Shown here in pieces: positions 30,144 to 49,701 of a stretch of DNA of 64,000 nt (within the stretch, counting starts at the first letter, position 1; every line of letters begins with the position of its first letter). Both the position numbers and the translations under genes were made by a program. This DNA comes from an uncultured Gemmatimonadales bacterium (lineage in GTDB: Bacteria; Gemmatimonadota; Gemmatimonadetes; Gemmatimonadales; GWC2-71-9). Location of the stretch: the NCBI GenBank assembly GCA_963844035.1, contig CAWJMT010000002.1:25780-89779 (forward strand). The letters are read 5' to 3'. The notes beneath the pieces are model-generated. The model worked only from the letters and a program-made list of their open reading frames with translations, was not told the DNA's origin and ran no database searches.

Positions 30144-30312
30144 TCCGCGACTCCTGGCACTTGGGATCGCCCCGAATCTGTAGCTGGGATGCAGCAGTCC
30201 GCCCCCGTTTCTGGAGGGCCCGCCGAGCCCACCAAACACAGCGTAACACCATAGTTGGCAACGATATACGCGCCAAAACCCAGGCGCGGACTTTCAGCCC
30301 GGCTCTTGCCCC

Positions 30313-34099: not shown

Positions 34100-34273
34100 G
34101 GTCGAGCCTTCCGGCTCCCCATGGCCGCGTGACCTGGCACCAATGTTGCCGTCCACCCTGCGACGGCCGAACCTGGAAGGAGCGGAGTCTATGGCACCGC
34201 GGATTGAGCGTGGCACGAGCGTGACACAAGGGCACGAAGTGAGGGCGCCGCAGCGCGCCGCCGCGAGGCCGGC

Positions 34274-35767
34274 GTGACCGCGTCCGTAGCTCCGTCCCCA
34301 CCAATGAGCCCGCGCGTTCGCACGCCGGGACGGCGCCTGGTCGTGCTCAGCTATCACTTTCCGCCCGACGGCACCGTCGGCGGATTGCGCTGGTCGGGTT
34401 TCACCAAGTACCTGAGCGCGATGGGGTGGACCTGCTGGGTGATCACCGCGGCTCCAGCTCCGGATCCCGGGACCTTGCCCGCGGGTGTCATCGTACGATC
34501 GTACCCCCGGCGCCGCACGCTGAATGATTTGTACAACTGGCTGCGGCGGCCTCGGGGCCAGCGAGAGGCAGCGTTGCGATCCGGCACGGACGAGGCGGCG
34601 CCGCCACCACCCAGGAAGCCGAATGTGCTTCGGGCGTGTATCGACCGGCTGCGGTTGGAAGTCTCCATGCTGCTGTTCCTCCCCGACGAGGGCCGCGGGT
34701 GGATGCTGCGCGCCGCCTGGCACGCGCGGCGGTTGATCGTGCAGGTGCGTCCCGATGCGATCGTGAGCAGTGGTCCGCCGCACTCAGCCCACGTCGCCGC
34801 TTGGCTGGCGACCCGGGGCACGCAAACGCGATGGCTTATGGATCTTCGGGATCCTTGGGTCAGCCCTATCCCCTCGTGGTGGAGCTCCCATGCGAAGAAC
34901 CAAAGCCACGTGACGAGGTGGTTGAACCACGCGCTGGAGCGCCTCGCCATCAAGTCCGCGAGCGGCGTGGTGTGCACCAACCCTGAGCTTGTCGAGGCGA
35001 TGGCGGTTCGGTATCCCGGCGCCACGTTCGACTGGGTATCGAACGGAGTGGATCGGGATCTCCTGCCTCCTCGCACGCAGGCCCGCTTTCCCGGCTTCGG
35101 GATCGTGTACGCGGGCTCTCTATATGGAGCACACGACCTCGGACCAGTGCTCACCGCCCTCCGAGCCTTCCTGGATCGCAATCCGCGCGCCGGGGAGCAG
35201 GGGACTACGCTGCGGCTCGCGGGAACGATCGAGCCGTCCCACGGCGAGCGGTTGCGGCGTCAGATTCGGGCGCTGCGTCTCGAGGCCCACGTGGAGTTTC
35301 TCGGCATCTTGAAGCGGGAGGCAGCGCTCCAGCTCGTCGCGCGGTCCCGGCTTGTGATTGTGTTGGCGCAGACCTTGGCGCACCAGGTGCCGGCGAAACT
35401 GTTCGAGTCCGTGGCCATGGAGATCCCGACCCTCGTCTTCTGTTCCGCCGGGAGCGCGGCGCACTCGGCCGCGGCGCGCGCGGGTGCTACTGCGGTGCGG
35501 TCGGAGGACCTTCAGCGGACCGTCCACGCGATGGAGGACGCCTGGTTGGGACGCACGCCGGTGCCTCAGCCCACGACGCCGATCGACCACGGTCAATTGG
35601 CAGCCCAGGTGGAGCAGCTGATCGCCCCGCACGGTCTGCGGACGACGGCCCTGGGTCTGAGATTGCGGGAGAGTGGTATCGCCGCATTCCGCCGTCGTCA
35701 GGTCGGCGTCGAGCGACCCCCGGAGCCGCCGGAAGGCGACACGGTGTGCTGTAGCAGGTCTACGTAG
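34274..35767 (+). CDS. glycosyltransferase family 4 (group 1); exact ends uncertain
   Basis: Intact ORF: RRLVVLSYHFPPDGTVGGLRW...; C-terminal GT1 fold (FGIVYAGSLYG...LRLAG...KLFESVAMEIPTLVF). Confidence 0.75.
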   Translation: MTASVAPSPPMSPRVRTPGRRLVVLSYHFPPDGTVGGLRWSGFTKYLSAMGWTCWVITAAPAPDPGTLPAGVIVRSYPRRRTLNDLYNWLRRPRGQREAALRSGTDEAAPPPPRKPNVLRACIDRLRLEVSMLLFLPDEGRGWMLRAAWHARRLIVQVRPDAIVSSGPPHSAHVAAWLATRGTQTRWLMDLRDPWVSPIPSWWSSHAKNQSHVTRWLNHALERLAIKSASGVVCTNPELVEAMAVRYPGATFDWVSNGVDRDLLPPRTQARFPGFGIVYAGSLYGAHDLGPVLTALRAFLDRNPRAGEQGTTLRLAGTIEPSHGERLRRQIRALRLEAHVEFLGILKREAALQLVARSRLVIVLAQTLAHQVPAKLFESVAMEIPTLVFCSAGSAAHSAAARAGATAVRSEDLQRTVHAMEDAWLGRTPVPQPTTPIDHGQLAAQVEQLIAPHGLRTTALGLRLRESGIAAFRRRQVGVERPPEPPEGDTVCCSRST

Positions 35768-36870
35768 ATGCTCGCGTAGTGCGCCACCATGTGCGAGATG
35801 TCGTACAGGGCGGCGGCGCGGGCGGCGGCCTGTGCGCCGAGCCGCTGCGCCGCTTCAGGGTCCTGGAGCAGGCGATCGAGGGCACCCGCCAGTGCCTCGG
35901 AATTGCCCGGCTCGACCAAGAGTCCCGCTGCGCCTTCGCCCAACGCCGTAGGTACCTCGCCGACCCTCGTGGCGATAATTGGGCGGCTCGCGAACATTGC
36001 TTCGAGGAGCGCGAGGGGCAGACCCTCGGACAACGACGGCATCACGAAAATGTCCGCGCTGCTCAGTAAGTTCGGGACATCAGCACGCAAACCCAGGAAG
36101 TGGACTCGGTCGGCGATGTGGTGCTCGCGCGCCCACGCTTGGAGCTCGTCCGCGAGCTCTCCGCGGCCCGCTAGCGCAAGGTGCACGTTGGGATACCGGT
36201 CGGACAGCGAGGCGAGCGCGGCGAGCAGCACGCGGTGGCCTTTGACGGGATAGAGATTGCCGACCGCGAGCAGGAGTCGTTGGTCGGGTGCGAGTCCCAG
36301 CTCCGCGCGCAGCGATGAGTCCGCGTGGGCGCGCGGTCGCACACCGTTTGCGACTACGGTGATACGAGAGAGGCGGACCCGGAGATCAGTGCTCAAGCTG
36401 CCGGCCAATCGCTGCGAGACGGCGACGAGGCTCCCGCTGGCCGCGACGGCCAGCCGCATCGCGAGTCGACGACGCAGCGCCGCGGCGTAGTAGCGGCTGC
36501 CATGCATGGTGATCACATGCGGGATACCCGCACGCCAGGACGCCCATGCGCCGTAAACGGCCATCGAGAATTCGTGGCTGTGGGCGATGGCCGCGCGGTG
36601 GCGTCGCAATGTCGCGGCAAGCCATTTCGCGCAGGTGGGGGACACCGGTCGCTCCAGCCGAAAATGCTCGACCACCACCCCCGTCCCGCTCAGCTCGCGC
36701 TCGAGCCAACCTTCCCCATTCGCGGGAAGAATCACCAGGTTCTCGGTTCCCGCGGCCTGGAGCCTGGTCGCGATGTTCGCCACCGTTCGCTCCGCGCCGC
36801 CTGGCCCGTCGGTCTCGATCAGATGCGCGATCGAGAGCCCGCGCAGCCGCTCGAGGGGCGCCGCCGTCAT
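35698..36870 (-). CDS. glycosyltransferase family 4
   Basis: Start MTAAPLERL at 36870 (ATGA overlap with the upstream gene). GGAERTV, LLAVGNLYPVKGH, VMPSLSEGLPLALLEAMFASRPIIATRVGEVP. Confidence 0.85.
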   Translation of the reverse strand: MTAAPLERLRGLSIAHLIETDGPGGAERTVANIATRLQAAGTENLVILPANGEGWLERELSGTGVVVEHFRLERPVSPTCAKWLAATLRRHRAAIAHSHEFSMAVYGAWASWRAGIPHVITMHGSRYYAAALRRRLAMRLAVAASGSLVAVSQRLAGSLSTDLRVRLSRITVVANGVRPRAHADSSLRAELGLAPDQRLLLAVGNLYPVKGHRVLLAALASLSDRYPNVHLALAGRGELADELQAWAREHHIADRVHFLGLRADVPNLLSSADIFVMPSLSEGLPLALLEAMFASRPIIATRVGEVPTALGEGAAGLLVEPGNSEALAGALDRLLQDPEAAQRLGAQAAARAAALYDISHMVAHYASIYVDLLQHTVSPSGGSGGRSTPT

Positions 36871-37783
36871 CCGCGGACCGCCCGGTGGGGGCTCCAACCT
36901 GCGATCCAGGTTTGGAATGCTGCGTCGGAAATGTGTGCGGGGATATTCACGCGCGGCGCGGCCCAGGGATCGGTCTCGTGAGTCGTCAGATGCGCATCCA
37001 GGGTCAACGCCATTGTGTAGCCCGCCGCGCGGGCGGCGTCGCGCACGCGCTGGTCCCACAATCCATATGGATAGGCGAAGAACTCCGCGAGGACGCCACT
37101 GCGGTCGGCGAGCGTCTCACGGCTGTCGACCATCTCGCTGCGCAGTTCCGCGTCATTCAAACGCGGCAGGGCGCGATGGGTAGCGGTGTGGACACCCAGA
37201 TCGAGGCCGCCACGAACCGCCTTGCGAATGACGTCCCAAGTGGCGGGCAGCGTCAAGGGTGGGCGGGAGGGGGCGGGCGTGACGCCGAGGTCCTGCAGGA
37301 TCAGCCGACCCGTCGCCACGCAGATCGCCGAGCCAGCGCGCGGACGATGGGCCGCCGGCCCGCCGGGCGGCGTCCGGGTGATCCCACCAAAAGGGCGCGG
37401 GGGCCGATGCGCGCGCTCCGTCGACCGACAAACACCGTGGCGGGCAGGCCGCAACTCCGCCAGGACGGGCCACGCGTATTCGAACACGCCGCGGTACGCG
37501 TCGTCGAAGGTGATGGCCGCCAGCCTCCGCAGCGACTTCCCGGCGCGCATCCGGGCGATCAATTCACGCAGCGGAACGACGGAGTAGCGCGCAGCGAGAC
37601 AACATCATCTGCTCCCGGAACCGGGACTGGGTGATGTGGAGCCCGGTGTTGGCTGAGCTCGGGCGGCTCCTCGGCAACGACGTTGTGATAGCACAGGACG
37701 ACCGCAGCGTTGCGAAACTGCCGAACGGCCGCGGGCAGGCCAAGGGCTCGCAGTCCGGCGTAGTATAAGGAAGCGGCGTTCAT
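36867..37783 (-). CDS. polysaccharide deacetylase (NodB homology); several frameshifts
   Basis: The N-terminus (MNAASLYYAGLRALG...VLCYHNV) is in ORF 37559..38695. ITFDDAYRGVFEYAWPVL and FAYPYGLWD are in ORF 36867..37562. Confidence 0.7.
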
Positions 37784-37867
37784 GCGAGAGAATCTACATT
37801 CAACTCGCGCCGGCTCGCGACGCGCGCCGGTGTGGCGGGAGACGTGCATGGCTGAGGGCTTGGGGAC

Positions 37868-39109
37868 GTGCCGATGAACGCTAGACCGCGGGTCATGGTG
37901 CTCTCGCAGTGTCTGCCGTATCCCCCGCAGAGCGGGGTTCGCACCCGGACGTTCAATATTCTTCGACAGCTCCAGCGCGAGTTCGACGTTACCGTGATCC
38001 CATTCTCTCGAGCCGTGCACCAGCCATCGGCTGCCGATCGGGAGGTTGGACGTGAAATGCTGGCGCGGGTGGTGACAGAGATCGCCGTTCCCGTGCCGAT
38101 CCCGAGCGAGCAGTCGGTAGCGCGGCGTGTGTGGGACCACCTGCGCAGCGTGCTGACGCACCGGCCGTACACCTCCTATGAGTACCGCAGTGGTGACTTC
38201 CGCCGGCAGCTGCGCGCGCTGCGGCGGCGCAGCCCACCGCAGCTGGTGCATCTGGACAGCTTCGATCTCACCGATTGGCTCGAGGAGCTGCCGGACGTTC
38301 CAGTGGCCTGTACCCACCACGACATCGAGCCGCTGTTGCTGAGGCTGCGGGCGACGCGGATGTCGCGGCTGGGAGTCGGTCCTTACTTGCGGCATCAAGC
38401 CGACCTGATGGAACAGCTCATGCGGGTGGCGTGTCCGGGATTCGATTTGAACGTCATGATGTCCGAATTGGACGCCGGCCGCCTCCGGGAAATCGCTCCG
38501 CAGTCGAAGACGCACGTGGCCCAGAACGGGGTGGACACGGATTACTTCCGTCCCATGCCGGAGGTACCGCCAATCCCGGGGCGTGTGCTGTTTCTCGGGC
38601 CCACGTATCAGTTCGCGAACCGGGACGCGGTCGAGCACCTGGTGGATGACATCCTCCCGGAGGTTCGATCCTGTTGCCCGACCGCGTCCGTCCAACTGGT
38701 GGGGCGGAACGCCGACGCGGACCGGAGGCGTTGGGAGAGCGTTGCGGGCGTCCGCTGCGCAGGGCAGGTGGAGGATGTGCGCCCGTTCCTGGCTGAGGCG
38801 CCATGCGTCGTCGTGCCCATTCGAGTGGGAGGCGGAACGCGTCTGAAGATCCTCGATGCCTGGGCGATGGGCAAAGCGGTGGTGTCAACCGCTACGGGGT
38901 GCGAGGGCCTGGATGTGGTGGATGGCGAGAACATTCTCATTCGCGACACTCCGCGATCATTCGCGGACGCCGTCTGCAACGTGCTGGAGGATCGCGCGCT
39001 ACGGGAGCGGCTGGGGTCGAATGCCCGCGCGACGGTGAGTGCGAAATACGCCTGGACCCGGGTGGGTCAGGAGCTGTGTGCCGCCTACCGGGGACTCGTG
39101 TCGGTCTGA
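37868..39109 (+). CDS. glycosyltransferase family 4 (resembles the PEP-CTERM/EpsH1-associated sugar transferase type)
   Basis: Intact 413 aa: RVMVLSQCLPYPPQSGVRTRTFNILRQL...; C-terminal VVPIRVGGGTRLKILDAWAMGKAVVST. Confidence 0.8.
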   Translation: MPMNARPRVMVLSQCLPYPPQSGVRTRTFNILRQLQREFDVTVIPFSRAVHQPSAADREVGREMLARVVTEIAVPVPIPSEQSVARRVWDHLRSVLTHRPYTSYEYRSGDFRRQLRALRRRSPPQLVHLDSFDLTDWLEELPDVPVACTHHDIEPLLLRLRATRMSRLGVGPYLRHQADLMEQLMRVACPGFDLNVMMSELDAGRLREIAPQSKTHVAQNGVDTDYFRPMPEVPPIPGRVLFLGPTYQFANRDAVEHLVDDILPEVRSCCPTASVQLVGRNADADRRRWESVAGVRCAGQVEDVRPFLAEAPCVVVPIRVGGGTRLKILDAWAMGKAVVSTATGCEGLDVVDGENILIRDTPRSFADAVCNVLEDRALRERLGSNARATVSAKYAWTRVGQELCAAYRGLVSV

Positions 39110-39250
39110 CGCAGTAGAAGTTTCCCACAGAAACGCTGTCCGTCGAGTTACCTCCTTACCATCGAACACTTTACACATTGCCATCGCGGCCGTGCTGTAG
39201 GTCACGGACCAGAAGCCCAGGCACGGCCATTTTTGGCCCGTCTTAAAGCA

Positions 39251-39340
39251 CGCTGCTCAGAGCAAAGCCGCTGAAAGGCGGTGACGCAGAGCCACGGGAC
39301 TACCGCGAGAGGCTTCGCCACGTCCGCCGGGCCGCCAGCG
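39251..39340 (+). promoter_or_regulatory. c-di-GMP-I (GEMM-I)-like riboswitch aptamer, copy 1
   Basis: CGCUGCUCAGAGCAAAGCCGCUGAAAGGCGGUGACGCAGAGCCACGGGACUACCGCGAG..UUCGCCACGUCCGCCGGGCCGCCAGCG. Has the GCAAA, GNRA-capped hairpin, GACGCAxAGCC, CGGG.CUA and GCCGGGCyGCC hallmarks. Confidence 0.75.
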
Positions 39341-39381
39341 ATCGACGAATGGGTCGACGTGGTGGGCCGGCGTTTTCATTT
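39327..39381 (+). terminator. intrinsic terminator/expression platform of riboswitch copy 1
   Basis: CCGGGCCGCCA (39327-37) pairs with UGGUGGGCCGG (39360-70) and is followed by CGUUUUCAUUU. The 5-prime arm overlaps the aptamer 3-prime end. Confidence 0.6.
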
Positions 39382-39401
39382 ATGGAGGGCGGAGCTAGAC
39401 G

Positions 39402-41908
39402 ATGACGTTCAAGTACAAGCTGTCGTGCCGCCTGGCTCTGCTCAGAGATGCCGCTGCCGCTGCTCGCGGCGGCCGCCCTGGTCGCATGCGAGATCCCCGT
39501 CGTCAGCAGTGATCCAGCTGTCTCAGTCGTCCAAGTCGTCGTCGTCCCCGAAAGCCTCAGTCTCGACGCAGCTCAACAACAGAAGTTCGCAGCCTATGGC
39601 CGTTCCGCGAGCGGTGACAGCTCCGCCGTCACCGTGACCTGGAGTGCGACCGGGGGCAGCATTACGTCCGACGGGATGTTCGCCGCCGACACGGCCGCCG
39701 GGGACTTCCTGGTGTCGGCGACCAACGCCGCGCTCAAGCTCTCGGGCTCGTCGCGGGTGCGCATCCGGCCGCGTCCGGTCGCGTCGGTGGCCGTGACGCC
39801 GGCATCGGCGAGTGTGGTGTGGCGCAGACGATCCAGCTCGCCGCCACCCCGCGCGATGCGAACGGCAACGACGCTGTCGGGCCGGGTGGTGACGTGGGGG
39901 AGCAGCAACGCGGCCGTCGCGACGGTGAGCGCGAGTGGGCTCGTGACCGGCGTCGCGGCCGGTGCGGCGACGATTACCGCCACGAGCGAGGGCAAGAGCG
40001 CCACGTGCGGCGGTGACGGTCACGCCGGCGCCGGTGGCGTCGGTGACCGTGAGCCCGACACTGGCAAGCGTGCCGGTGGGGCAGACGGTGCAGCTCACCG
40101 CGACGCCGCGGGATGCGAACGGGAACGCCCTGACGGGGCGGGTCGTGAGCTGGGCGAGCAACAACACGGGGGTGGCGACGGTGAGCGGGAGCGGGCTCGT
40201 GACCCCGGTCGCGGCCGGCTCGGCGATCATCACGGCGACGAGCGAGGGCAAGAACGGCACGGCCGGGATCACGGTGACGCTGACGCCGGCGGCCGTGGCG
40301 TCGGTGAGCGTGAGTCCGGCGTCGGCGAATGTGATCGCGGGGCAGACCGTGCAGCTCACCGCGACGCCGCGGGATGCGAGCGGCAACGCGCTGTCGGGCG
40401 CGTCGTGACCTGGAGCAGCAGCAACAGCGCCGTGGCGACGGTGAGTGGCAGCGGGCTCGTGACGGGCGTGGGCGCCGGGTCCGGCGACGATCACGGCGAC
40501 GAGCGAGGGTCAGAGCGGCACGGCGGCGATCACCGTGCGCCGGCGCCAGCGCCGGTGGCGTCGGTGAGCGTGAGTCCGGCGCCCGGCGAGCGTGACGGCC
40601 GGGCAGACGGTGCAGCTCACGGCGACGCCGCGGGATGCGAGCGGCAATGCCCTCACGGGACGCGTCGTGACGTGGGGCAGCAGCAACACGCGCTGTCGCG
40701 ACGGTGAACGGCAGCGGGCTGGTGAGCGGCGTCGCGGCCGGGTCGGCGACGATCACCGCGACGAGCGAGGGAAAGAGCGGCACGTCCCTGGTGACCGTGA
40801 CTCCGGTGCCGGTGGCGACGGTGAGCGTCAGCCCGGCCGCGCCGAGCGTGGCGGCGGGGCAAACGGTGCAGCTCACCGCGACGCCGCGGGACGCGAACGG
40901 GAACGCGCTCGACGGGCGGGTCGTGACCTGGGGGAGCAGCAACACGGCGCGTCGCTACGGTGAACGGCACGGGGCTTGTGACGGGGGTCGCGGCGGGGTC
41001 GGCGACGGTGACCGCTACCAGTGAAGGCAAGAGTGGCAGCGCCGCCGTGACGGTGACGGCGACGTCGGGTGGCGGGACCGTGCTGTTCGAGGAGCACTTC
41101 GAGGACAACTCGTTCGCGTCGCGCGGCTGGTATGACAACACCAGCCCGCCCACCACGACCGCGGAGCACGCGCCCGGCAGCAGTACGCGCGCCTTGCAGC
41201 TGCACTTCACCCAAGGCGCCACGACTGCGGTGTCCGGTGGCTCGGCGCGGCATTTGTTCACCGCCTCGTCCACGGTCTACATCAGTTATTGGGTGAAATA
41301 CAGCACCAACTGGGTCGGCTCGGGCGAGGCGTATCACCCGCACGAGATCATGCTCCTGAGCGATCAGGACGGGGCCTATGACGGTCCGTCGACCAGCTGG
41401 CTCGCCGCCTATGTCGAGCACAACTACCAGAACGGCGGCATTCCGCGCCTGGCGTTGCAAGACAGCAAGGCCATCAACACGATCCTTCGGCACGCCGCCG
41501 TTCAACTTGAGCGGCGTTACCGAAAACCGCTCGACCTGCGGCTGCAACGGCGTCGTGGAACCGAACGTCGTCACGAGCTGCTTCAGCTTTCCGCCCTGGT
41601 ACAACGACAAAGAGATCATCTCGCCGACGAAGATTGCGCCGACGGCGTGGCGGAATCAGTGGATCCACGTGGAGGCCTACTTCCAGCTGAACTCGGTCGT
41701 CGGCGGCATCGGCGTGCCCGACGGCGTGATGCAGTACTGGTTCAACGGGACGCTGATGATCGACCGGCACGACATCCTGATGCGCACCGGCGCGCGCCCG
41801 ACCCTGAAGTTCAACCAGTTCCTGATCGCGGCGTACATCGGCGACGGGTCGCCGGTGGACCAGTACATGTGGATTGACGACCTCACGGTGGCCACGGCGA
41901 AGCCGTAG
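39402..41908 (+). CDS. lipoprotein with about 6 Big_2 (bacterial Ig-like) repeats and a C-terminal jelly-roll polysaccharide-lyase-like domain (type A); at least 10 apparent frameshifts
   Basis: MTFKYKLSCRLALLR... then ...LVACEIP lipobox. Repeats follow the pattern VSPAsAsV.aGQTVQLTATPRDAnGNALtGRVVTWgSSNtaVATVsgSGLVTGVAAGSATITATSEGKSGTAaVTV. The C-terminus runs LFEEHFEDNSFASRGWYDN...YHPHEIMLLSDQDG...WIHVEAYFQLNS...QYWFNGTLMIDRHD...WIDDLTVA. Confidence 0.75.
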
Positions 41909-41955
41909 CCGGAGGTCGGAAAGAGCAGGACGCAGGCGACAACTGATTCGACATA

Positions 41956-42045
41956 CGCTGCTCAGAGCAAAACCGCCGAAAGGCGGTGACGCAGAGCCAC
42001 GGGACTACGGCGAGTTCGCTCGCTACGTCCGCCGGGCCGCCAGCG
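41956..42045 (+). promoter_or_regulatory. c-di-GMP-I (GEMM-I)-like riboswitch aptamer, copy 2
   Basis: CGCUGCUCAGAGCAAAACCGCCGAAAGGCGGUGACGCAGAGCCACGGGACUACGGCGAGUUCGCUCGCUACGUCCGCCGGGCCGCCAGCG. Confidence 0.75.
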
Positions 42046-42083
42046 ATCCCCCGGGGTCGATACTGGCGGCCCGTTCGTTTTGG
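42034..42083 (+). terminator. intrinsic terminator/expression platform of riboswitch copy 2
   Basis: GGGCCGCCAG (42034-43) is perfectly complementary to CUGGCGGCCC (42063-72) and is followed by GUUCGUUUUGG. Confidence 0.65.
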
Positions 42084-42115
42084 CCGAACTGAAGCGAGAG
42101 GGAGAGACGAGTTTC

Positions 42116-44714
42116 ATGACATTCCTGCACAAGCTGGCACAGCGCCTGGCTCGACTGAAGACGGCCCTCATCGTGGGTGTCGTCGCGGCGATCGCGTGCG
42201 AGATACCGTTGCCGGTGGACCCATCAGGCACCATCGCGATGCTACTCGTCTCGCCCAAGGCGGTGACCACCCGCGCCGGGCAGATGGCGGATTTCGTGGT
42301 CGTCGGTCTGACCACCAGCGGTGACACGGCCAGCGTCCCCGTGACCTGGAGTGTCACCGGGGGGACGATGGTCGACACGAGCACGCAACGGCGGCAAGCA
42401 CTTCGGCAAGTACAAGGCGCCAATGTCCCCAGGGCGTTACAAGGTCGTGGCCCAGTCCGGCGGCGTCGCGGACTCCGCAGTCGTCGACGTGAGCGCTGTG
42501 CCCGTGGCGACGGTGAGCGTCAGTCCCGCGTCGGCCAGTGCGACGGTGGGACAGACGGTGCAGTTGACGGCGACGACGCGCGACTCCACCGGTGCCTCGC
42601 TGAGCGGCCGAATTGTGACGTGGGCGAGCAGCAACTCCGGTGTGGCGACGGTGAGCGCCAGCGGGTTGGTGACCGGCGTCGCGGCCGGCGCAGCGACGAT
42701 TACCGCCACGAGCGAGGGCAAGAGCGGAACCGCGGCGGTGACCATCACGCCGCCGCCGGTGGCGTCGGTGATCGTGAGCCCGGCGGCCGTGAGCGCCGCC
42801 CTAGGCCAGACGGCCCAGTTCACGGTCACGGCTGGAAGATGCGAGCGGGAACGTCCTGACGGGGCGGGCGGTGAGCTGGACGAGCAGCAACACGGGGGTG
42901 GCGACGGTGAGCGGTAGCGGGCTCGTGACCCCGGTCGCGGCCGGCTTGGCGATCATCACGGCGACGAGCGAGGGCAAGAACGGCACGGCGGGGATCACGG
43001 TGACGCTGACGCCGGCGGCGGTGGCGTCGGTGAGCGTGAGCCCGGCGTCCGCGAATGTGATCGCGGGGCAGACGCTGCAGCTCACCGCGACGGTGCGGGA
43101 TGCGAGCGGGAACGTGCTGCTAGGGCGCGTGGTGACGTGGGCCAGCGACGACGCCGGAACGGCGACGGTGAATGGCAGCGGGGTGGTGACGGGCGTTGAC
43201 GCGGGCACGGCGACGATTACGGCGACGAGCGAAGGCCAGAGCGGCTCGGCGGCCGTCACGGTCACCGTACCGGTGGCCACGGTGAGCGTGAGTCCCGCGT
43301 CCGCGAGCGTGATCGCGGGGCAGACGGTGCAGCTGACCGCGACGCCGCGCGATGCGAACGGGAACGTGCTGACGGGGCGCGTGGTGACGTGGGCCAGCAG
43401 CAACACCGGGCGGGCGACGGTGAATGGCAGTGGGCTCGTGACGGGCGTGAGCACCGGGACGGTGACGATCACGGCCACGAGCGAGGGGAAGAGCGGGACG
43501 GCGGCGCTGACGGTGACGCCGGTGCCAGTCGCCACCGTGACGGTCAGCCCGGCGACGCCCAGCGTGTCGGTCGGGCAGATGGTGCAGCTGACGGCCACGA
43601 CCAGGGATGGCAACGGCAACGTGTTGACCGGCCGCGTCATCACGTGGTCGAGCAACGCCCTTGGGACCGCCACGGTGAGCGGCAGCGGGCTGGTGACGGG
43701 TGTCGCTGCCGGCCCGGTCACGATCACGGCGACGAGTGAGGGGCAGAGTGGCTCGTCGGCCGTCACCGTCACGCCGCCGGCGCCCGTCGCCACGGTGAGC
43801 CTGAACCCGGCGACGCCCAGCGTGGCGGCGGGGCAGACGGTGCAGCTGACCGCGACACTCAGGGATGCCCTCGGCAACCCGCTGACCGGCCGCGTCATCA
43901 CGTGGTCGAGCAGCGCTGTGGGGACCGCGACGGTGAGCGGCAGCGGGTTGGTGACGGGCGTCGCCGTCGGGTTGGCGACGATCACGGCGACGAGCGAAGG
44001 CCGGAGCGGCACGGCCGCGGTGACGGTGGTGACCCCGCCGCCGCCCGGCACCACGTGGCCGAACGAGCCGGCGGGCTTTACGACCGTCACCGATTTCGGC
44101 TTCAACAATTTCAGCTCGGGCGGCTGGCAGACGAATTCCGGGCCGACCATCGCGACGGACTCAGTGCTCCGATCTCGCCGTCCACCGTCGCCCAGTGGTT
44201 CTATCGGCAGGGGTTTGGGGCCGGCGCATCGCCGGGCACGGTGTTTAACACCTCGTCGGTTGCGGGGGATCATTTCATCGGCTACGAGTTCAAGTACTCG
44301 AATCCCTACAGCAACCAGGCGGTGGGGACCAAGCAGTGGTATCCCTACAATCACGACCGCGGACTACTTCGTGCTCTTCAACAGTAGCTCGAAAATCCAG
44401 GTGGACCTGCAGGTGCCGGCGGCGCAGGGTGGGAGCTACAACCTGTACCGCCAATGTGAACGATCCGACGATCACGCTCGGCGTGTGGCACAAGTTTGAG
44501 ATGTACTTCAAGCGCTCGAGCAGTCCGACGACGGCGGATGGTATCGTGCGGTGGTGGATCGACGGGCAGCTGTGCGGCAACTACACGAACGTGAGGTGGC
44601 CGAGCACTGGGTTCGACGAATTGCGGTTCTGCGCCGACGTGGGGCGGGATCGGTGGCAGCGTGGCGTTCGACAGCTACTGGTGGGTCGATCACATCCACG
44701 TGAGCGAGCCGTAG
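42116..44714 (+). CDS. lipoprotein with about 7 Big_2 repeats and a C-terminal jelly-roll polysaccharide-lyase-like domain (type B); several frameshifts
   Basis: MTFLHKLAQRLARLK...AIACEIP lipobox. The 542-aa ORF 42871..44499 is almost all Big_2 repeats. The C-terminus runs WPNEPAGFTTVTDFGFNNFSSGGW...FKYSNPYSNQAVGTKQWYP...VWHKFEMYFKRSS..GIVRWWIDGQL...WVDHIHVSEP. Confidence 0.75.
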
Positions 44715-44956
44715 AGCTCCACCTGTGTGAGCCACCGCACACGGAAGACTGGTCAGACAAAAGCGCAAGTACACCAGAATGCAGCGAGCACAGGTGTAGC
44801 GCGTCGACGCAACTCTCGCTCTTGTCGACGGGTAGGTTGCACCACTTGTGCGGGTCACGAGCTCCTACTAGTCTGTCGTCCGTTGAATGTGCGCGGCAAT
44901 TTGTAGCCAGCACGCCTCGCGCGAAAATGGTTGTCGCACCCCGCTGAAACCAGCAC

Positions 44957-45044
44957 AGCTGACAAGAGCAAATCCGTCGAAAGACGGTGACGCAGAGCTA
45001 CGGGACTAACGCGAGCTTCTCGCCACGTCCGCCGGGCCGCCAGC
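44957..45044 (+). promoter_or_regulatory. c-di-GMP-I (GEMM-I)-like riboswitch aptamer, copy 3 (first of a tandem pair)
   Basis: AGCUGACAAGAGCAAAUCCGUCGAAAGACGGUGACGCAGAGCUACGGGACUAACGCGAGCUUCUCGCCACGUCCGCCGGGCCGCCAGC. Confidence 0.72.
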
Positions 45045-45085
45045 ACATCGAGAAGTCATCGAGCTGGCGGCCGTTTCGTTTGTGG
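45035..45085 (+). terminator. intrinsic terminator/expression platform of riboswitch copy 3
   Basis: GGCCGCCAGC (45035-44) is perfectly complementary to GCUGGCGGCC (45063-72) and is followed by GUUUCGUUUGUGG. Confidence 0.65.
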
Positions 45086-45162
45086 AAGTAGTGGTGCTGT
45101 TCTGTTGTTCTGTTGTTCTGTCGCTAACACGTCTGTTCGGAAGGATCGCCCCTCCCCAAGAG

Positions 45163-45262
45163 GAGTGCGACAAGGGCATAGCCGGCGAAAGCCGGTGACG
45201 CAAAGCCCCGAGGCTACCGCGCGGATCAGCCGCGTCACGCCAGTCGAGCTGCCGAACCTCAC
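45163..45262 (+). promoter_or_regulatory. c-di-GMP-I (GEMM-I)-like riboswitch aptamer, copy 4 (divergent; second of the tandem pair; no obvious terminator)
   Basis: GGGCAUAGCCGGCGAAAGCCGGUGACGCAAAGCCCCGAGGCUACCGCGCGGAUCAGCCGCGUCACGCCAGUCGAGCUGCC. Ends about 24 nt before the ATG at 45286, next to the GAGGGG Shine-Dalgarno sequence. Confidence 0.55.
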
Positions 45263-45285
45263 TCTCCAGTCTCGAGGGGCGTACA

Positions 45286-48200
45286 ATGACGTCCACAAGT
45301 CGGTTGTCGATCCGACTGGCCATGGCCAGTCGCGCAACGGTAGTACTCAGCGCCGTCGCCAGCATGGCATGCGGTTTGGGGGATCCCTCAAGCAGCGTGT
45401 CCAGCAGGCCGACGTTCGCCACGCCTGGTGCAGCACCAGCCACGGTCTTGTTACAGGAATCCTTTGAGGATAACGCGTTTGCGTCGCGCGGCTGGTACGA
45501 CAATGCAAACCTAGCGACCACGACGGCCCAGCACGTCCCCGGGAGTACGCGCGCCCTGGAAGCTCACTTCACCCCCGGTGCGACCACGCCCACCTGGGGC
45601 GGCGCGGCGCGCCACCTGTTCACGCCGACCCCTACGCTGTATGTCAGCTATTGGGTCAAGTACAGCACCAATTGGGTGGGCTCGGGCCGCTCGTACCACC
45701 CGCACGAGTTCCTGGTGCTGAGCGATCAGGACGGCGATTGGGATGGCCCGTCGAACAACTGGCTGACGTTCTATGTCGAGCACAACTACCAGAACGGCGG
45801 CATCCCGCGGTTGGCGCTTGCAGGACAACAAGGCGATCAACACGACCTTGGGTGCCCTGCCACTGAACCTGGTCGAGCGCGACGGAGAATCGCTCGACCG
45901 CAGGGTGCAACGGCGTGGTGGAGCGAATGTCGTCACGACCTGCTTCAACATGCCGCCCTGGTACAACGACAAGGAGATACCGCCGCCCAGGTCGCGTTCC
46001 AGCCCAACCCTGGTCCAGGTTACAAGAGGCGACTGGAATCATGTCGAAGTCTATGCTCAACTGAACTCAGTGTCGGCGGGGATCGGCCAGGCCGACGGTG
46101 TATTGCAGTATTGGTTCAACGGCACGCTCGTGATCGACCGGCACGACATGCTGTTCCGCACTGGCGCGCGTCCCAATATCCAATTCCGCCAGTTCCTGAT
46201 CGCGCCGTACATCGGCGATGGCTCGCCGGTCGATCAGTACGCCTGGTTCGACGACCTCACCGTCGCCTCGGGGCAGATCGCCGGCGTCCCGAGTCCGTCG
46301 GTCTCGTTGGTGACGATCAATCCCGCCGTAGTCAGCGTAGTCGTCGTGCGGCACGACCCAGCTGGCGGCGACGGTCAATGATTCGGCCGGAAGCGCATTG
46401 GCCGGGCGTGCTTCCACGTGGGTGAGCAGTGCGCCCGCGGTTGCGACGGTGAGCGCGAGCGGGCTCGTGACGGGGATCGCCGCCGGGTCGGCACGATCAC
46501 GGCGACGAGCGAGGGGAAGAGTGCGACGGCGAGCCTCACGGCGACCAGCACCGCCACGAACCCGGGAACGGTGACCGACCTGAAGGTCGCGAGCGTGACG
46601 AACAACTCGGTGAGACGCTCACGTTCACCGAGGTGAACGACGGCAGCGGCAATCCGGCGAGTTACGACATCCGCGGGGCGGCCGGGACATTCGCGTGGGG
46701 GCTCGGCGGTCTCGGTATCGCAGGGCACGTGTGCGACGCCCGTGGCCGGGACGGCGATTGGCGCGGCGCGGAGCTGTACGCGCTCGGCTCGTCCCGCGAC
46801 CGCGTACCAGTTCCAGCTGGTGCCCTCCGGGACGCTCAACGTGAACGCGACGTTCGGCGCGCTCTCGAACGTGGCGAGTGGGACGACCGCTACGGGACCC
46901 GGGGCACCGCTGCCGGCGCTGGTGGCGACCGTGAGCGTGACTCCCGCCGCGGCAAACGTCACCGTTGGGTAGGGTCCCGTCAACTCGCGGCGACACCGGC
47001 CCAGCGGGGGCAGCGTGCTGACCGGCCGCACGGTCACGTGGGCGAGCAGTGCGCCCGGTGTGGCGACGGTGGACGCGGTGGCCGGTTACAGGACTCACGG
47101 CCCGCGCAGCACCATCACGGCCACGAGTGAAGGGAAGAGCGGGAGCGCCGCGATCGCCGTCGCCAGCGTCCCTGTGGCCACGGTGACGTGTGACTCCCTC
47201 GAGCGGGAGTGTCATGGTGGGGAGCACGCAGCAGTTCACGGCGACTCTCAAGGATGCGGGCGGCGTGACGCTCACCGGGCGGACGGTTGTGTGGGCGAGT
47301 AGTACACCCGCGGTTGCGACGGTGAGCGCGAGCGGGCTCGTGACAGGGATCGCCGCCGGGTCGACCACGATCACGGCGACGACCGAAGGGAAGAGTGCGA
47401 CGGCGAGCATAACGGTGACCAGCACCGCCACGAAACCGGGCGCGGTGACCGACCTGAAGGTCGCGAGCGTGACGAACAACTCGGTGACGCTCACGTTCAC
47501 CGAGGTGAACGACGGCAGCGGCAATCCGGCGAGTTACGACATCCGCGGGGCGGCCGGGACATTCGCGTGGTGGTCGGCGGTCTCGGTATCGCAGGGCACG
47601 TGTGCGGCGCCCGTGGCTGGCACGGCGATTGGGGCGAAGCGGAGTTGTACGGTGCTGGGGTTGAATGCGGCCACGGCCTACCAGTTTCAGCTGGTGGCAT
47701 TACGGGGGACGCTCAACGTGAACGCGACGTTCGGCGCGTTGTCGAACGTGGCGAGTGGGACGACCGTGACGGGACCCGGGGTGCCTCCGCCTCCGCCTCC
47801 AGCGCCGGTGGCGACCGTGAGCGTGACTCCAGCCGCGGCGAGCGTCACGGTTGGTGGGGACGGTGGCGCTGGCGGTAGCTTCTACGCGATGCCAGCGGGA
47901 ACGTGCTCGTCGGGCCGCGGGGTCACGTGGTCGTCCAATGCGCTCAGCGTGGCGACCGTGAACGTGAACGGGCTCGCGACGGCGCTGGTCGTCGGCTCGG
48001 CCGCGATCACGGCGACGAGCGAAGGCCAGAGCGGCACGGCCGCAGTGACCGGGCTGACCTCACCACCTCCACCCGCGGGCGGGGCGTGGGCGAATGAGCC
48101 GACCGGCTTTACGACGGTGACCGATTTCGGCTTCGACAACTTCAGTTCGGGCGGCTGGCGTACGAATTCCGGGCCGACCATTACGACGGATGCGAGTGCC

Positions 48201-48749
48201 CTGGTGTCGCCGTCGAACGTGGCCCAGTGGCGGTATCCGCAGGGGTTCGCCGCCGGCGCCTCGCCTGGGGACGGTCTACTACGGTCCGACCACGCCGGTC
48301 ACGGATCATTTCATTGCCTATGACTTCAAGTACTCGAATCCCTACAGCAACCAGGCGGTGGGGACCAAGCAGTGGTATCCCACAATGCGACGGCGGACTA
48401 CTTCGTGCTGTTCAACAGCAGCTCGAAGATCCAGGTGGACCTACAGGTGCCGGCGGCGCAGGGCGGGAGCTACAACCTGTATGCCAACGTGAACGATCCG
48501 ACGATTACGCTCGGTGTGTGGCACAAGTTTGAGATGTACTTCAAGCGCTCGAGCACTCCGACGACGGCGGATGGGATCGTGCGGTGGTGGATCGATGGGC
48601 AGTTGTGCGGCAGCTTCCACACGAACGTGAGATGGCCGAGCACTGGGTTCGACGAATTGCGGTTCTCACCGACGTGGGGAGGGTCGGCGGCAGCGTCGCG
48701 TTCAACAGCTTCTGGTGGGTCGATCACATTCACGTCAGCAAGGCCGTAG
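45286..48749 (+). CDS. large modular lipoprotein: N-terminal type-A lyase-like domain, Big_2 and FN3-like repeats, C-terminal type-B lyase-like domain; many frameshifts
   Basis: MTSTSRLSIRLAMASRATVVLSAVASMACG lipobox. The type-A domain (LQESFEDNAFASRGWYDN...YHPHEFLVLSDQDG...WFDDLTVA) is followed by Big_2 units, an FN3-like unit (PGTVTDLKVASVTNNSVTLTFTEVNDGSGNPASYDIR) present twice, and a type-B C-terminus (WANEPTGFTTVTDFGFDNFSSGGW...WVDHIHVS). Confidence 0.7.
46434..46965 (+). repeat. copy 1 of an about 870-bp-period internal duplication (Big_2 + FN3 module) in the 45286 gene
   Basis: Long near-identical nucleotide runs shared with 47307-47850, for example gtgagcgcgagcgggctcgtgac.gggatcgccgccgggtcg and ttcaccgaggtgaacgacggcagcggcaatccggcgagttacgacatccgcggggcggccgggacattcgcgtgg. 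Confidence 0.85.
47307..47850 (+). repeat. copy 2 of the internal duplication
   Basis: Offset of 873 nt from copy 1 (cccgcggttgcgacggtgagcgcgagcggg at 46434 and at 47307). Confidence 0.85.
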
Positions 48750-48794
48750 GGTTCAAGGCCCCTGCCGTAATGAGGGGGAGGGGTTTCTCTGGGA

Positions 48795-48826
48795 GGGCTG
48801 CCGCCCGGAGCGTTGGGCGGCGGCCC
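48795..48826 (+). terminator. GC-rich hairpin after the 45286 gene (terminator candidate without a clear U-tract)
   Basis: GGGCUGCCGCCC (48795-806), loop ggagcguu, GGGCGGCGGCCC (48815-826): 12 bp including one G-U pair. Confidence 0.4.
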
Positions 48827-48884
48827 GCCAAGAACGTCAAAAGTGTTGACCGTACCGGACCGCGGTGAAACATTAGGGGCGCGG

Positions 48885-49701
48885 ATGAGCCGGTTTGTGT
48901 GGTCGCACTCGCTGCGGACGAGGGTATCCCTCGTTCTCTTGTCAGGCCTCGTGCCACTCGCATGCGGCCCGTCGTCAGACTCGGATGGACCGTGGCCGAA
49001 CGAGCCCCGGGGCTACACCGTGTACTCCGACTGGGCGATGGATTCCGCGCCCCCCGCCAACATCCCCGACGGGCCTATCCGGGCACCAGCACCTGGCGTG
49101 CCCGAACAGGTCTGCCGGGGGACCCCGACGGCTGGATCGAGCTCGCTGCGGATGCAAGCGGTGCTCATTCGGCCACGGCCGTGTATCAGTTCGCGTACCC
49201 GACCGGGATGCGAGACGGTGCGGGTCCCGGGCAGATTTGGAGTGCCCTCCCCAATTTCAACCGCGTGTACGTTGGCTTTTGGTGGAAGCTGTCCGATCCG
49301 TGGCAGTATCACGACGTCGGCGATAAGCTCGGCTATTTGTGGGCCGGCAGCAGCAACATGTTCCTGATTCAGTATGGCAGTCCCCCCAGTCTGCGCTGCG
49401 TATGTGCAGTTCTTCGGTCTCTCAATGGCTCTATCCGAACGTCAACTCCACGACCGTCACTCGCGGCGTGTGGCATCGCGTCGAGCTCTTCGCTCAGTAC
49501 ATCCCGGGACAGAAGGGTCGCGTGAAATGGTGGCTCGACGGCGTGCTGCAGGGGGACTACGGGACGTGGTCTGCCGGCGCCATCCCCGGACAGTTCACTG
49601 AGTTGTCGTTTCGATCCGGTGCTGGGGCGGTAACAGACGGCTCAGTGAAGGGCGAGACGGATTACTTCTGGTTCGACGACATCCACATCAGCGGCCAGTA
49701 A
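48885..49701 (+). CDS. stand-alone type-B lyase-like jelly-roll lipoprotein; at least 2 frameshifts
   Basis: MSRFVWSHSLRTRVSLVLLSGLVPLACG lipobox; GPWPNEPRGYTVYSDWAMD; YQFAYPTGMRDGAGPGQIW...FWWKLSDPW; VWHRVELFAQYIPGQKGRVKWWLDGVL...YFWFDDIHISGQ. Confidence 0.65.

What the first reader, a model, noticed from the sequence alone, without database searches (positions are those of the whole stretch)
41956..42083. Second copy of the same riboswitch-plus-terminator leader before the next Big_2 gene
41956-42045 is nearly identical to copy 1 in the conserved single-stranded positions but differs in the stems and loops (ACCGCC/GGCGGU; inner hairpin GCGAG-UUCG-CUCGC). GGGCCGCCAG (42034-43) and CUGGCGGCCC (42063-72) form a perfect 10-bp stem followed by GUUCGUUUUGG. 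GAGAGGGAGAG and the ATG at 42116 come next. Two adjacent genes therefore each carry their own copy rather than sharing one operon leader.
Basis: partly seen in the sequence, partly recalled or inferred. Interest (0 to 1): 0.75.

Follow-up and report, generated by a model that had tools for sequence, protein, structure and literature searches.

The report
Cyclic-dinucleotide ON riboswitch, A20 subtype
This is a real cyclic-dinucleotide riboswitch that sits before a surface-lipoprotein gene of a soil Gemmatimonadota-like bacterium and probably lets transcription continue only when the signal molecule is bound; it is a known kind, but it has the pocket base typical of cGAMP-sensing relatives rather than of c-di-GMP sensors.

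Summary
Window 41956-42044 matches Rfam RF01051 (c-di-GMP-I / GEMM-I) at 65 bits against a 35-bit cut-off. A 10-11 bp G+C-rich hairpin (42033/34-42072/73) plus GUUCGUUUUGG follows, then a Shine-Dalgarno site and the ATG at 42116. It is one of four such aptamers on the + strand, not two.

The terminator's 5' arm is the aptamer's own 3' end. Aptamer and terminator therefore exclude each other, and ligand binding should prevent termination (an ON switch). The terminator fold is the thermodynamic default.

In 125 related leaders, mostly Gemmatimonadota MAGs, 94 keep this overlap, against 6 in a control. P1, P2, P3 and the terminator arm all covary.

Copies 1-3 have A at the position equivalent to Vc2 G20, the GEMM-Ib (3',3'-cGAMP or bispecific) signature, plus a G-C closing pair in P3. 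Copy 4 is canonical (G20). The order A-type then G-type, as in copies 3 and 4, recurs in at least 102 distinct metagenome sequences.

The ligand (cGAMP, c-di-GMP or both) was not tested. The promoter was not found. The downstream genes encode Big_2 lipoproteins; their many frameshifts look like assembly errors.

Verdict: a new member of a known kind, of moderate interest.

The parts
41956..42045 (+). GEMM-I-fold aptamer (copy 2, A-type). P1 pairs 41956-41960 (CGCUG) with 42041-42045 (CAGCG).
   Evidence: RF01051 at 65.0 bits, E = 1.9e-10. On 106 homologues 91.7% of cells pair, 18 of 28 pairs show compensatory changes, and 0 of 500 shuffles reach this.
41966..41966 (+). A at the position equivalent to Vc2 G20 / Gs1761 A14. 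It is the last nucleotide of J1/2, immediately 5' of P2, and is the base that reads one base of the ligand.
   Evidence: In the Rfam alignment model position 11 is consensus G and is A here. The mapping uses the helix boundaries in PMC6274999 and the G20/A14 equivalence in PMC6140456.
41967..41992 (+). P2 hairpin: the GC...GC outer pairs, then the 6-bp stem ACCGCC/GGCGGU with a GAAA tetraloop at 41978-41981.
   Evidence: All six inner pairs show compensatory changes across homologues.
41993..42040 (+). A41993 is the A47 equivalent (J2/3). P3 runs from G41994 to C42038; this closing G-C pair replaces the canonical A-U. The distal hairpin is GCGAG-UUCG-CUCGC. G42039 and C42040 form J1/3, and C42040 is the C92 equivalent.
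   Evidence: C at alignment column 97 is invariant in 106 of 106 A-type sequences although the search pattern did not require it. Canonical copy 4 has A...U at the same place. The P3 register follows Gs1761 A42-U73 (PMC6274999).
42033..42073 (+). Intrinsic-terminator hairpin. The 5' arm CGGGCCGCCAG (42033-42043) overlaps the 3' strand of P3 and most of the 3' strand of P1. The 3' arm CUGGCGGCCCG is at 42063-42073. An inner hairpin lies at 42044-42062.
   Evidence: It is part of the minimum-free-energy fold. The terminator state scores -68.7 kcal/mol against -49.2 with P1 enforced. 94 of 125 homologues have a complementary arm plus a T-rich tail, against 6 of 125 in the control. The arm covaries with the P1 3' strand.
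42073..42083 (+). Imperfect U-tract GUUCGUUUUGG (6 U in 11 nt).
   Evidence: Read from the sequence. The terminator scan lists the site.
42096..42118 (+). Shine-Dalgarno region GAGAGGGAGAG (42096-42106) and the ATG start codon (42116-42118).
   Evidence: Read from the sequence. The N-terminus MTFLHKLAQRLARLK matches that of homologous regulated genes.
42116..44714 (+). Regulated gene B. It encodes a lipoprotein-type signal (lipobox AC), Big_2 repeats and a C-terminal polysaccharide-lyase-like jelly-roll domain. As assembled, the reading frame hops at least five times.
   Evidence: Pfam Big_2 hits reach 1.6e-59; Polysacc_lyase is weak at 4e-05. Frame hops are shown by the GC3 plot. The C-terminus and stop codon were read.
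39251..39381 (+). Copy 1 (A-type): aptamer 39251-39339, terminator hairpin 39325-39372, then UUUUCAUUU. It precedes gene A (ATG at 39402, stop at 41906-41908).
44957..45083 (+). Copy 3 (A-type): aptamer 44957-44044 region continuing to 45044, terminator stem 45035-45044 with 45063-45072, then GUUUCGUUUGU.
45165..45288 (+). Copy 4 (canonical G-type, G20 with an A-U closing pair), in tandem after copy 3. It has no terminator. A CCUC segment and the Shine-Dalgarno site GAGGGG lie before the ATG at 45286, which suggests control of translation.
   Evidence: RF01051 at 66.6 bits. The conserved flanks appear.

Best explanation
Window 41956-42083 is the 5' leader of a Big_2 lipoprotein gene. It is a cyclic-dinucleotide riboswitch of the GEMM-I fold that works by transcription attenuation.

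Proposed mechanism:
1. As the RNA is made, the aptamer (P1, P2, P3) is complete at 42045.
2. If the ligand binds in the three-helix junction, it locks P1 and the base of P3. These helices contain nucleotides 42033-42043.
3. Those same nucleotides are the 5' arm of the terminator. When they are held in the aptamer, the 3' arm (42063-42073) has no partner. The polymerase reads through the U-tract and the gene is expressed.
4. Without ligand, the far more stable terminator hairpin forms and the transcript ends near 42078-42083.
It is therefore an ON switch.

Ligand: the pocket has A at the Vc2-G20 position, with the A47 and C92 equivalents unchanged. J1/2 (CUCAGA) is otherwise like that of Vc2. 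This makes it a natural counterpart of the Vc2 G20A mutant and a relative of the GEMM-Ib riboswitches. I therefore expect it to bind 3',3'-cGAMP, and to bind c-di-GMP more weakly than a canonical aptamer does. I lean to cGAMP, or to dual sensing, as the physiological input (about 0.5). c-di-GMP alone is about 0.4.

Shown here: family membership, structure with covariation, the overlap of aptamer and terminator and its conservation, and the kind of gene regulated.
Inferred: the direction of switching, the site of termination and the identity of the ligand.
For: - Rfam RF01051 at 65 bits over the full model.
- Covariation in P1, P2 and P3 on 106 homologues: 91.7% of cells paired, 18 of 28 pairs with compensatory changes, 0 of 500 shuffles as good, and slid controls at 23-47% paired.
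- The terminator is part of the minimum-free-energy fold. It is 19.5 kcal/mol more stable than the P1-enforced fold.
- The overlap of aptamer and terminator is kept in 94 of 125 homologous leaders, against 6 of 125 in an upstream control.
- When the P1 3' strand changes (AAAG, GGCG, AUGG, AGAA), the terminator arm changes to match.
- The orthologue L105 is about 96% identical over aptamer plus terminator. Its changes lie in the inner loop or give G-U pairs.
- A at model position 11 maps to G20/A14 (PMC6140456; PMC6274999).
- Natural A variants bind cGAMP or both ligands (PMC6140456; PMC9481103).
- The cGAMP riboswitch pilM of Geobacter is an ON switch in which aptamer and terminator exclude each other (PMC9262584).
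- In 100 of 102 distinct mixed tandems the first aptamer keeps A and the second keeps G. This argues that the two types are not interchangeable.
- Soil metatranscriptome contigs cover 41955-42093 (4 differences) and 41949-42384 (33 differences). Homologous leaders are therefore transcribed, both alone and joined to the coding region.
Against: - No binding or transcription assay exists for this RNA or for any Gemmatimonadota homologue that I could find.
- The U-tract is imperfect (GUUCGUUUUGG).
- No promoter was identified.
- No cGAMP synthase is known for this phylum, and the window holds no GGDEF gene.
- The Vc2 G20A mutant binds c-di-GMP slightly better than cGAMP in vitro: 53 nM against 120 nM (PMC6140456). 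A20 alone does not prove cGAMP sensing.
- The RNA evidence comes from related organisms in metatranscriptome assemblies. These can contain DNA and carry no information on transcript ends.
Confidence: 0.8

Rival explanations
1. It is an ordinary c-di-GMP riboswitch. c-di-GMP is the only physiological ligand. The A at the G20 position merely lowers affinity, through a protonated A pairing with G, so that the switch responds at higher c-di-GMP levels than canonical aptamers do.
For: - It scores well against the c-di-GMP-I model.
- The Vc2 G20A mutant still binds c-di-GMP at 53 nM (PMC6140456).
- The regulated genes are surface Big_2 lipoproteins beside an exopolysaccharide gene cluster, which are classic c-di-GMP targets.
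- No cGAMP synthase is known in this phylum.
- A low-affinity plus high-affinity tandem for one ligand would also explain why A-type and G-type aptamers are kept side by side.
Against: - A is kept in 100 of 102 first aptamers of the mixed tandems and in all three singlet or first copies here.
- In every tested natural case the A gives gain of cGAMP binding (PMC6140456; PMC9481103).
Confidence: 0.4
2. It is a cGAMP-selective GEMM-Ib riboswitch in the strict sense, like Geobacter Gs1761 or Gm0970, with c-di-GMP excluded.
For: - The A20, A47 and C92 equivalents and the G before C92 match the Gs1761 pocket (A14, A41, G74, C75).
- It has the same ON-switch terminator design as pilM.
- A canonical G-type aptamer coexists with it in the same leaders.
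Against: - J1/2 is CUCAGA, like Vc2. It is not the A-rich A9-A14 junction of Gs1761, in which A11, A12 and U13 contact the ligand.
- The P3 closing pair is G-C, not A-U.
- Several natural A20 aptamers are bispecific (PMC6140456).
Confidence: 0.25
3. The hairpin at 42033-42073 is not a riboswitch-controlled terminator. It is the ordinary terminator of the upstream gene (stop codon at 41906-41908), and the aptamer is a relic or acts in some other way.
For: - Only 47 nt separate the upstream stop codon from the aptamer, and no other terminator follows that gene.
- No promoter was found for gene B.
Against: - The hairpin's 5' arm is built from aptamer nucleotides and covaries with P1 in unrelated genomic contexts.
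- In L105 the upstream flank is unrelated, yet aptamer and hairpin are conserved together with the downstream gene.
- Copies 1 and 3 have the same design after quite different upstream regions.
Confidence: 0.05

Closest known systems
c-di-GMP-I riboswitch (GEMM-I, Rfam RF01051), type example Vibrio cholerae Vc2
   Same: It has the same three-helix fold: a GNRA tetraloop in P2, a receptor in P3, and the A47 and C92 equivalents. J1/2 is CUCAGA against CACAGG in Vc2. It passes the family's gathering score by 30 bits.
   Different: The G20 equivalent is A. The P3 closing pair is G-C instead of A-U. Canonical aptamers discriminate against cGAMP, whereas G20A variants do not (PMC6140456).
GEMM-Ib, the 3',3'-cGAMP (c-AMP-GMP) riboswitches of Geobacter (Gs1761, Gm0970/pilM)
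   Same: It has A at the G20-equivalent position and the same J2/3 and J1/3 pocket bases. It is a transcriptional ON switch in which aptamer and terminator exclude each other (PMC9262584; PMC6274999). It regulates surface and extracellular proteins.
   Different: The J1/2 sequence differs: Gs1761 has an A-rich junction with A11, A12 and U13 contacting the ligand. The P3 closing pair differs. The host phylum is Gemmatimonadota-like rather than Desulfuromonadota. Selectivity is untested here.
Vc2 G20A mutant and natural bispecific A20 aptamers (Clostridium beijerinckii Cbe 1-2; Desulfobacca acetoxidans cluster 3)
   Same: The pocket is that of a canonical GEMM-I aptamer with the single G-to-A change. 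Such RNAs bind both c-di-GMP and cGAMP (PMC6140456; PMC9481103).
   Different: Those cases are isolated sequences or engineered mutants.
Tandem c-di-GMP-I riboswitches (347 doublets and 12 triplets in PMC9481103; Bc3-5 of Bacillus thuringiensis, PMC4759541)
   Same: Copies 3 and 4 of this window are a doublet upstream of one gene.
   Different: The published doublets are treated as sensing one ligand, for a sharper response. The doublet here pairs an A-type aptamer carrying a terminator with a G-type aptamer carrying a Shine-Dalgarno-level platform. Table 2 of PMC9481103 lists no c-AMP-GMP/c-di-GMP gate.

Membership tests
c-di-GMP-I / GEMM-I (RF01051) | Score at or above the curated gathering threshold of the covariance model, over the full model | tested here: met
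   65.0 bits against 35; model positions 1-87 of 87; E = 1.9e-10.
c-di-GMP-I / GEMM-I (RF01051) | P1-P2-P3 three-way junction supported by covariation; GNRA tetraloop in P2 | tested here: met
   On 106 homologues 18 of 28 pairs show compensatory changes, 91.7% of cells pair, and 0 of 500 shuffles match. The GAAA loop is at 41978-41981.
c-di-GMP-I / GEMM-I (RF01051) | Ligand-contacting triad G20 / A47 / C92 (Vc2 numbering) of the c-di-GMP-selective pocket | tested here: not met
   The A47 and C92 equivalents are present (41993 and 42040). The G20 equivalent is A (41966) (mapping). The fold is that of the family, but the c-di-GMP-selective pocket is not.
c-di-GMP-I / GEMM-I (RF01051) | Binds c-di-GMP | not testable with these tools
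   This needs in-line probing, ITC or a reporter assay.
GEMM-Ib (3',3'-cGAMP riboswitch) | A at the position equivalent to Vc2 G20 / Gs1761 A14 | tested here: met
   A41966 is the last nucleotide of J1/2 before P2. A is also present in 100 of 102 first aptamers of mixed tandems, where the search pattern did not impose it.
GEMM-Ib (3',3'-cGAMP riboswitch) | Selective binding of 3',3'-cGAMP over c-di-GMP | not testable with these tools
   A20 is necessary but not sufficient. The Vc2 G20A mutant and Cbe 1-2 bind both ligands (PMC6140456).
GEMM-Ib (3',3'-cGAMP riboswitch) | The host makes 3',3'-cGAMP (a Hypr GGDEF or a DncV-type synthase) | tested here: inconclusive
   The 64-kb window has no GGDEF motif. 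Only two GGDEF domains were found in 1.67 Mb of fetched loci, both with the canonical Asp. The rest of the genome is not available. No literature was found for the phylum.
Transcriptional ON riboswitch (the aptamer acts as anti-terminator) | The terminator hairpin shares nucleotides with aptamer helices, so the two folds exclude each other; a U-rich tract follows | tested here: met
   Nucleotides 42033-42043 belong both to P3/P1 and to the terminator's 5' arm. The feature is conserved and covaries in homologues.
Transcriptional ON riboswitch (the aptamer acts as anti-terminator) | Ligand-dependent read-through, with short terminated transcripts | tested here: inconclusive
   Metatranscriptome contigs of related organisms cover the leader alone and the leader joined to the coding region. 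They give no end positions and no information on ligand.

The most novel reading that the evidence does not exclude
The A-type aptamers of Gemmatimonadota, including this one, are dedicated sensors of a second cyclic dinucleotide, most likely 3',3'-cGAMP. That would reveal an undescribed cGAMP signalling pathway controlling surface lipoproteins in this phylum. Where an A-type aptamer with a terminator is followed by a canonical G-type aptamer with a Shine-Dalgarno-level platform, the pair would form a natural two-input AND gate: cGAMP at the level of transcription, then c-di-GMP at the level of translation. This arrangement is seen at 44957-45256 in this window and in at least 102 distinct metagenome sequences.
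Probability: 0.35. Interest if true: 0.75.

Novelty: new member of a known kind. Interest (0 to 1): 0.45.

Why it matters
For annotation, the leader should not simply be labelled as a c-di-GMP riboswitch. The base that reads the ligand is the one found in cGAMP-sensing and bispecific relatives.

If the A-type aptamers respond to cGAMP, cGAMP-riboswitch signalling would extend from Geobacter and its relatives to Gemmatimonadota, an abundant but poorly studied soil phylum. It would also point to a regulon of Big_2 surface lipoproteins with lyase-like, phosphoesterase and other C-terminal domains, next to exopolysaccharide genes.

The repeated units of one riboswitch per gene, and the conserved A-type then G-type tandems, give a simple natural system for testing how cells combine two cyclic-dinucleotide signals.

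If the ligand proves to be c-di-GMP only, this is an ordinary, well-behaved example of a common riboswitch class.

Tried and rejected
- Promoter search. The sigma-70 consensus scan found nothing between 41800 and 41956. Position-specific information content over 99 upstream flanks aligned at P1 showed no motif. K-mer enrichment gave only GTCACG, in 12 of 94 flanks, and it is absent before copy 2. No promoter is claimed.
- Source genome. An exact-protein look-up of the window's RecA found nothing. Sequencing-run searches found only related soil populations holding at most 12% of the sampled words. Taxonomy therefore rests on the homologous loci being mostly Gemmatimonadota MAGs.
- cGAMP synthase. 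There is no GGDEF motif in the window, and too few GGDEF domains in the fetched loci to be informative.
- Primary GEMM-Ib papers (PMC4418906, PMC4418907) are not held. The determinants were taken from PMC6140456, PMC6274999, PMC9262584 and PMC9481103.
- Rfam register for the first P3 pair (A at 41995 paired with C42038) was rejected. That pair would be an invariant mismatch in 106 of 106 sequences. The Gs1761 register (A42-U73) gives G41994-C42038, a standard pair.
- Pseudogene reading of the downstream genes was rejected as the main explanation. Illumina contigs of related populations carry 1-nt indels at 40398, 40691 and 40950, which are the frame-hop sites.
- The minus-strand ORF 41962-42423 (153 aa) was dismissed. 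It did not reach the GC3 threshold of 0.80 used, and it overlaps the structured leader.

Full report
**Observation**

- A GEMM-I-like core lies at 41956-42045.
- GGGCCGCCAG (42034-42043) pairs with CTGGCGGCCC (42063-42072), followed by GTTCGTTTTGG (42073-42083).
- GAGAGGGAGAG lies at 42096-42106 and the ATG at 42116.

The same scan finds three more hits on the same strand: 39251-39339 (57.7 bits), 44957-45044 (62.9 bits) and 45165-45256 (66.6 bits). The window therefore holds four aptamers before three genes, and the last two are in tandem.

A loose core pattern matches only these four places, against 0.07 expected from shuffles.

**Structure**

I searched one genome per species for the core AGAGCAAA-N6-GAAA-N6-GACGCAGAGC. 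Most are Gemmatimonadales or Gemmatimonadota MAGs; some are Longimicrobiales, Nitrospirota, Eisenbacteria and others.

I aligned 106 distinct sequences and tested the structure P1/P2/P3.
- 91.7% of cells are paired, against 23-47% when partners are slid by 1-3 columns.
- 18 of 28 pairs show compensatory changes.
- No shuffle out of 500 reaches the observed values.
- P1 (41956-41960 with 42041-45) covaries, for example CGCUG/CAGCG, CUUUG/CAAAG and CCAUG/CAUGG.

The aptamer is real and under selection.

**Expression platform**

The minimum-free-energy fold of the leader contains an 11-bp stem, 42033-42043 with 42063-42073, capped by a small inner hairpin and followed by the U-rich tract.

Nucleotides 42033-42043 are also the 3' strand of the base of P3 and most of the 3' strand of P1. 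The two folds therefore exclude each other. The terminator fold scores -68.7 kcal/mol and the fold with P1 enforced scores -49.2. Termination is the default, and a bound ligand must hold the aptamer together to let the polymerase pass. This makes it an ON switch.

The design is conserved.
- In 125 homologous leaders with enough downstream sequence, 94 have an arm complementary to the aptamer's 3' end plus a T-rich tail within 90 nt. A control using the upstream side gives 6.
- Where the P1 3' strand differs, the terminator arm differs to match: AAAG with CUUU, GGCG with CGUC or CACC, AUGG with CCAU, AGAA with UUCU.
- Copies 1 and 3 of the window have the same design.
- The published cGAMP riboswitch pilM of Geobacter metallireducens works this way (PMC9262584).

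**The pocket**

The Rfam alignment shows that model position 11, a conserved G, is A in copies 1-3 and G in copy 4.

I mapped the positions using the published helix boundaries of Gs1761: J1/2 ends with A14 just before P2; J2/3 is A41; P3 starts with A42-U73; J1/3 is G74-C75 (PMC6274999). I also used the stated equivalence of A14 with Vc2 G20 (PMC6140456). The mapping gives:
- A41966 is the G20 equivalent.
- A41993 is the A47 equivalent.
- G41994-C42038 is the first pair of P3, replacing the canonical A-U.
- G42039 and C42040 form J1/3, and C42040 is the C92 equivalent.

The C at 42038 is invariant in all 106 aligned sequences although the search pattern did not require it. The canonical copy 4 has A and U at those places. 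The A-to-G and U-to-C differences are therefore one compensatory pair.

J1/2 is CUCAGA. By my recollection of the Vc2 sequence this is CACAGG with the last G changed to A. The published contacts show that it is unlike the A-rich junction of Gs1761.

The literature states that G20 reads one guanine of c-di-GMP and that cGAMP riboswitches have A there. The Vc2 G20A mutant binds both ligands, c-di-GMP at 53 nM and cGAMP at 120 nM. Several natural A variants are bispecific (PMC6140456). A natural A variant in Desulfobacca gains cGAMP affinity (PMC9481103).

The element is thus a GEMM-I-fold aptamer with a GEMM-Ib-like pocket. Its ligand cannot be settled by sequence.

**A-type and G-type are kept apart**

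In the fetched genome loci I found ten canonical aptamers (G20 with A-U). Seven of them lie 150-210 nt downstream of an A-type aptamer, counting the window's own copies 3 and 4.

I then scanned metagenome contigs for GACGCAGAGC followed, after 125-155 nt, by a canonical aptamer.
- In 100 of the 102 the first aptamer has A at the G20 position, which the pattern did not impose.
- 83 have a terminator arm plus T-tract between the aptamers.
- 95 have a CCYC...GRGG hairpin just 5' of the second aptamer.

The second aptamer has no terminator. It is flanked by CCUC-type segments and a strong Shine-Dalgarno site, which suggests control of translation.

Such strict maintenance of A in one partner and G in the other argues that they differ in function, either in ligand or in affinity. 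I found no description of this mixed tandem. Table 2 of PMC9481103 lists no c-AMP-GMP/c-di-GMP gate, and tandem c-di-GMP-I doublets are treated there as sensing one ligand.

**Regulated genes and surroundings**

Gene B starts at 42116 (MTFLHKLAQRLARLK..., lipobox AC) and ends at 44714. It has Big_2 repeats and a C-terminal polysaccharide-lyase-like domain.

Intact homologues behind the same riboswitch type carry Big_2 repeats with a PL14-like, phosphoesterase or other C-terminal domain.

In 37 of 118 downstream ORFs the N-terminus follows the motif M-x-F-x-[FH]-K-L-[SA]-x-R-L-A. NCBIfam does not know this motif.

Upstream of the three cassettes lie glycosyltransferases, a FemAB-like acetyltransferase and an ATP-grasp protein, which together look like an exopolysaccharide cluster. 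Further upstream lie recA and alaS.

The reading frames of genes A, B and C hop repeatedly. Illumina contigs from related soil populations carry single-base indels at 40398, 40691 and 40950, which are frame-hop sites. The frameshifts are therefore probably assembly errors, not decay. The aptamer itself is free of indels relative to the orthologue L105.

**Own leader, own promoter?**

A relative (L066) shows the same layout.

In L105, the close orthologue of copy 2, identity is about 96% over aptamer and terminator. Similarity starts exactly at P1, and the upstream flank is unrelated. The unit of riboswitch plus gene therefore behaves as a cassette.

I found no promoter. Only 47 nt, with no terminator, separate the upstream stop codon from the aptamer. 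Transcription may enter from the upstream gene, in which case this riboswitch acts as an internal checkpoint.

**Transcription**

No RNA data exist for the source organism. Soil metatranscriptome assemblies do contain related contigs: one covering 41955-42093 with 4 differences, and one covering 41949-42384 with 33 differences. Homologous leaders are therefore transcribed, alone and joined to the coding region. The much higher depth over the aptamer core cannot be interpreted, because that core is shared by many loci.

**Verdict**

The element is a new member of a known kind: a GEMM-I-fold, transcriptional ON riboswitch.

The added value lies in three points: the A20-type pocket, which opens the question of cGAMP or dual sensing in Gemmatimonadota; the conserved cassette design; and the neighbouring mixed tandem. 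Binding and termination assays would settle the ligand and the direction of switching.

Noticed in passing
window 44957-45288: Copies 3 and 4 form a mixed tandem. An A-type aptamer with its own terminator (stem 45035-45044 with 45063-45072) is followed about 120 nt later by a canonical G-type aptamer without a terminator, before the ATG at 45286. The same order recurs in 7 fetched genome loci and in at least 102 distinct metagenome sequences (100 of 102 with A in the first aptamer). I found no published description.
   Followed up: partly
window 45140-45288; also L018, L044, L060, L070, L080, L102: The canonical G-type aptamers share conserved flanks. A CCCCUC...GAGGGAG hairpin lies just 5' of the aptamer. 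After it come GCCGAACCUC and a strong Shine-Dalgarno site (GGAGGGG) a few nucleotides before the start codon. This looks like a translational platform with competing CCUC/GAGG pairings. The mechanism was not worked out.
   Followed up: partly
window 39400-49500: The Big_2 genes change reading frame every few hundred bases, while recA, alaS and other genes in the window are intact. Illumina soil contigs of related populations show 1-nt indels at 40398, 40691 and 40950, which are frame-hop sites. The frameshifts are probably assembly errors in this repeat-rich, G+C-rich stretch.
   Followed up: partly
window 39402-39446 and 42116-42160; homologues: The regulated lipoproteins share an N-terminal motif, M-[PT]-F-x-[FH]-K-L-[SA]-x-R-L-A-x-[ML]-[KR], before the hydrophobic stretch and lipobox Cys. 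It occurs in 37 of 118 downstream ORFs. No NCBIfam model matches it. It may be a lineage-specific export or sorting signal.
   Followed up: partly
window 39195-39206 (GTAGGTCACGGA); L024, L028, L036, L047, L048 upstream flanks: A GTCACG-containing inverted repeat (for example TGACCTAGGTCACGG) lies about 45-55 nt upstream of some A-type aptamers, including copy 1 but not copy 2. GTCACG occurs in 12 of 94 flanks against 3.5 in the background. It may be a protein-binding site or a promoter element.
   Followed up: no
window 24445-39109: A probable exopolysaccharide biosynthesis cluster lies directly upstream of the riboswitch cassettes on the same strand: GT4 glycosyltransferases at 34274-35767 and 37868-39109, a FemAB/GNAT-like protein at 31863-32891, and an ATP-grasp protein at 24445-25665.
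   Followed up: partly
window 45098-45125: A short tandem repeat (CTGTTCTGTTGTTCTGTTGTTCTGTC, unit GTTCTGTT-like) sits between the terminator of copy 3 and the hairpin before copy 4.
   Followed up: no
L105:1270-1626 against window 41780-42135: Similarity to the close orthologue begins within 2 nt of the first base of P1, and the upstream flank is unrelated. This suggests that riboswitch plus gene is shuffled or duplicated as a cassette whose 5' boundary is the aptamer itself. L105 is filed under a Solirubrobacterales bin, probably mis-binned.
   Followed up: no
window 45286-49500: Gene C does not seem to end at 46381-46425. After a lyase-like N-terminal domain the coding signal continues, with frame hops, into Big_2 and fn3 domains and a second lyase-like C-terminal domain near 48300-49500. 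No further riboswitch was found there.
   Followed up: partly
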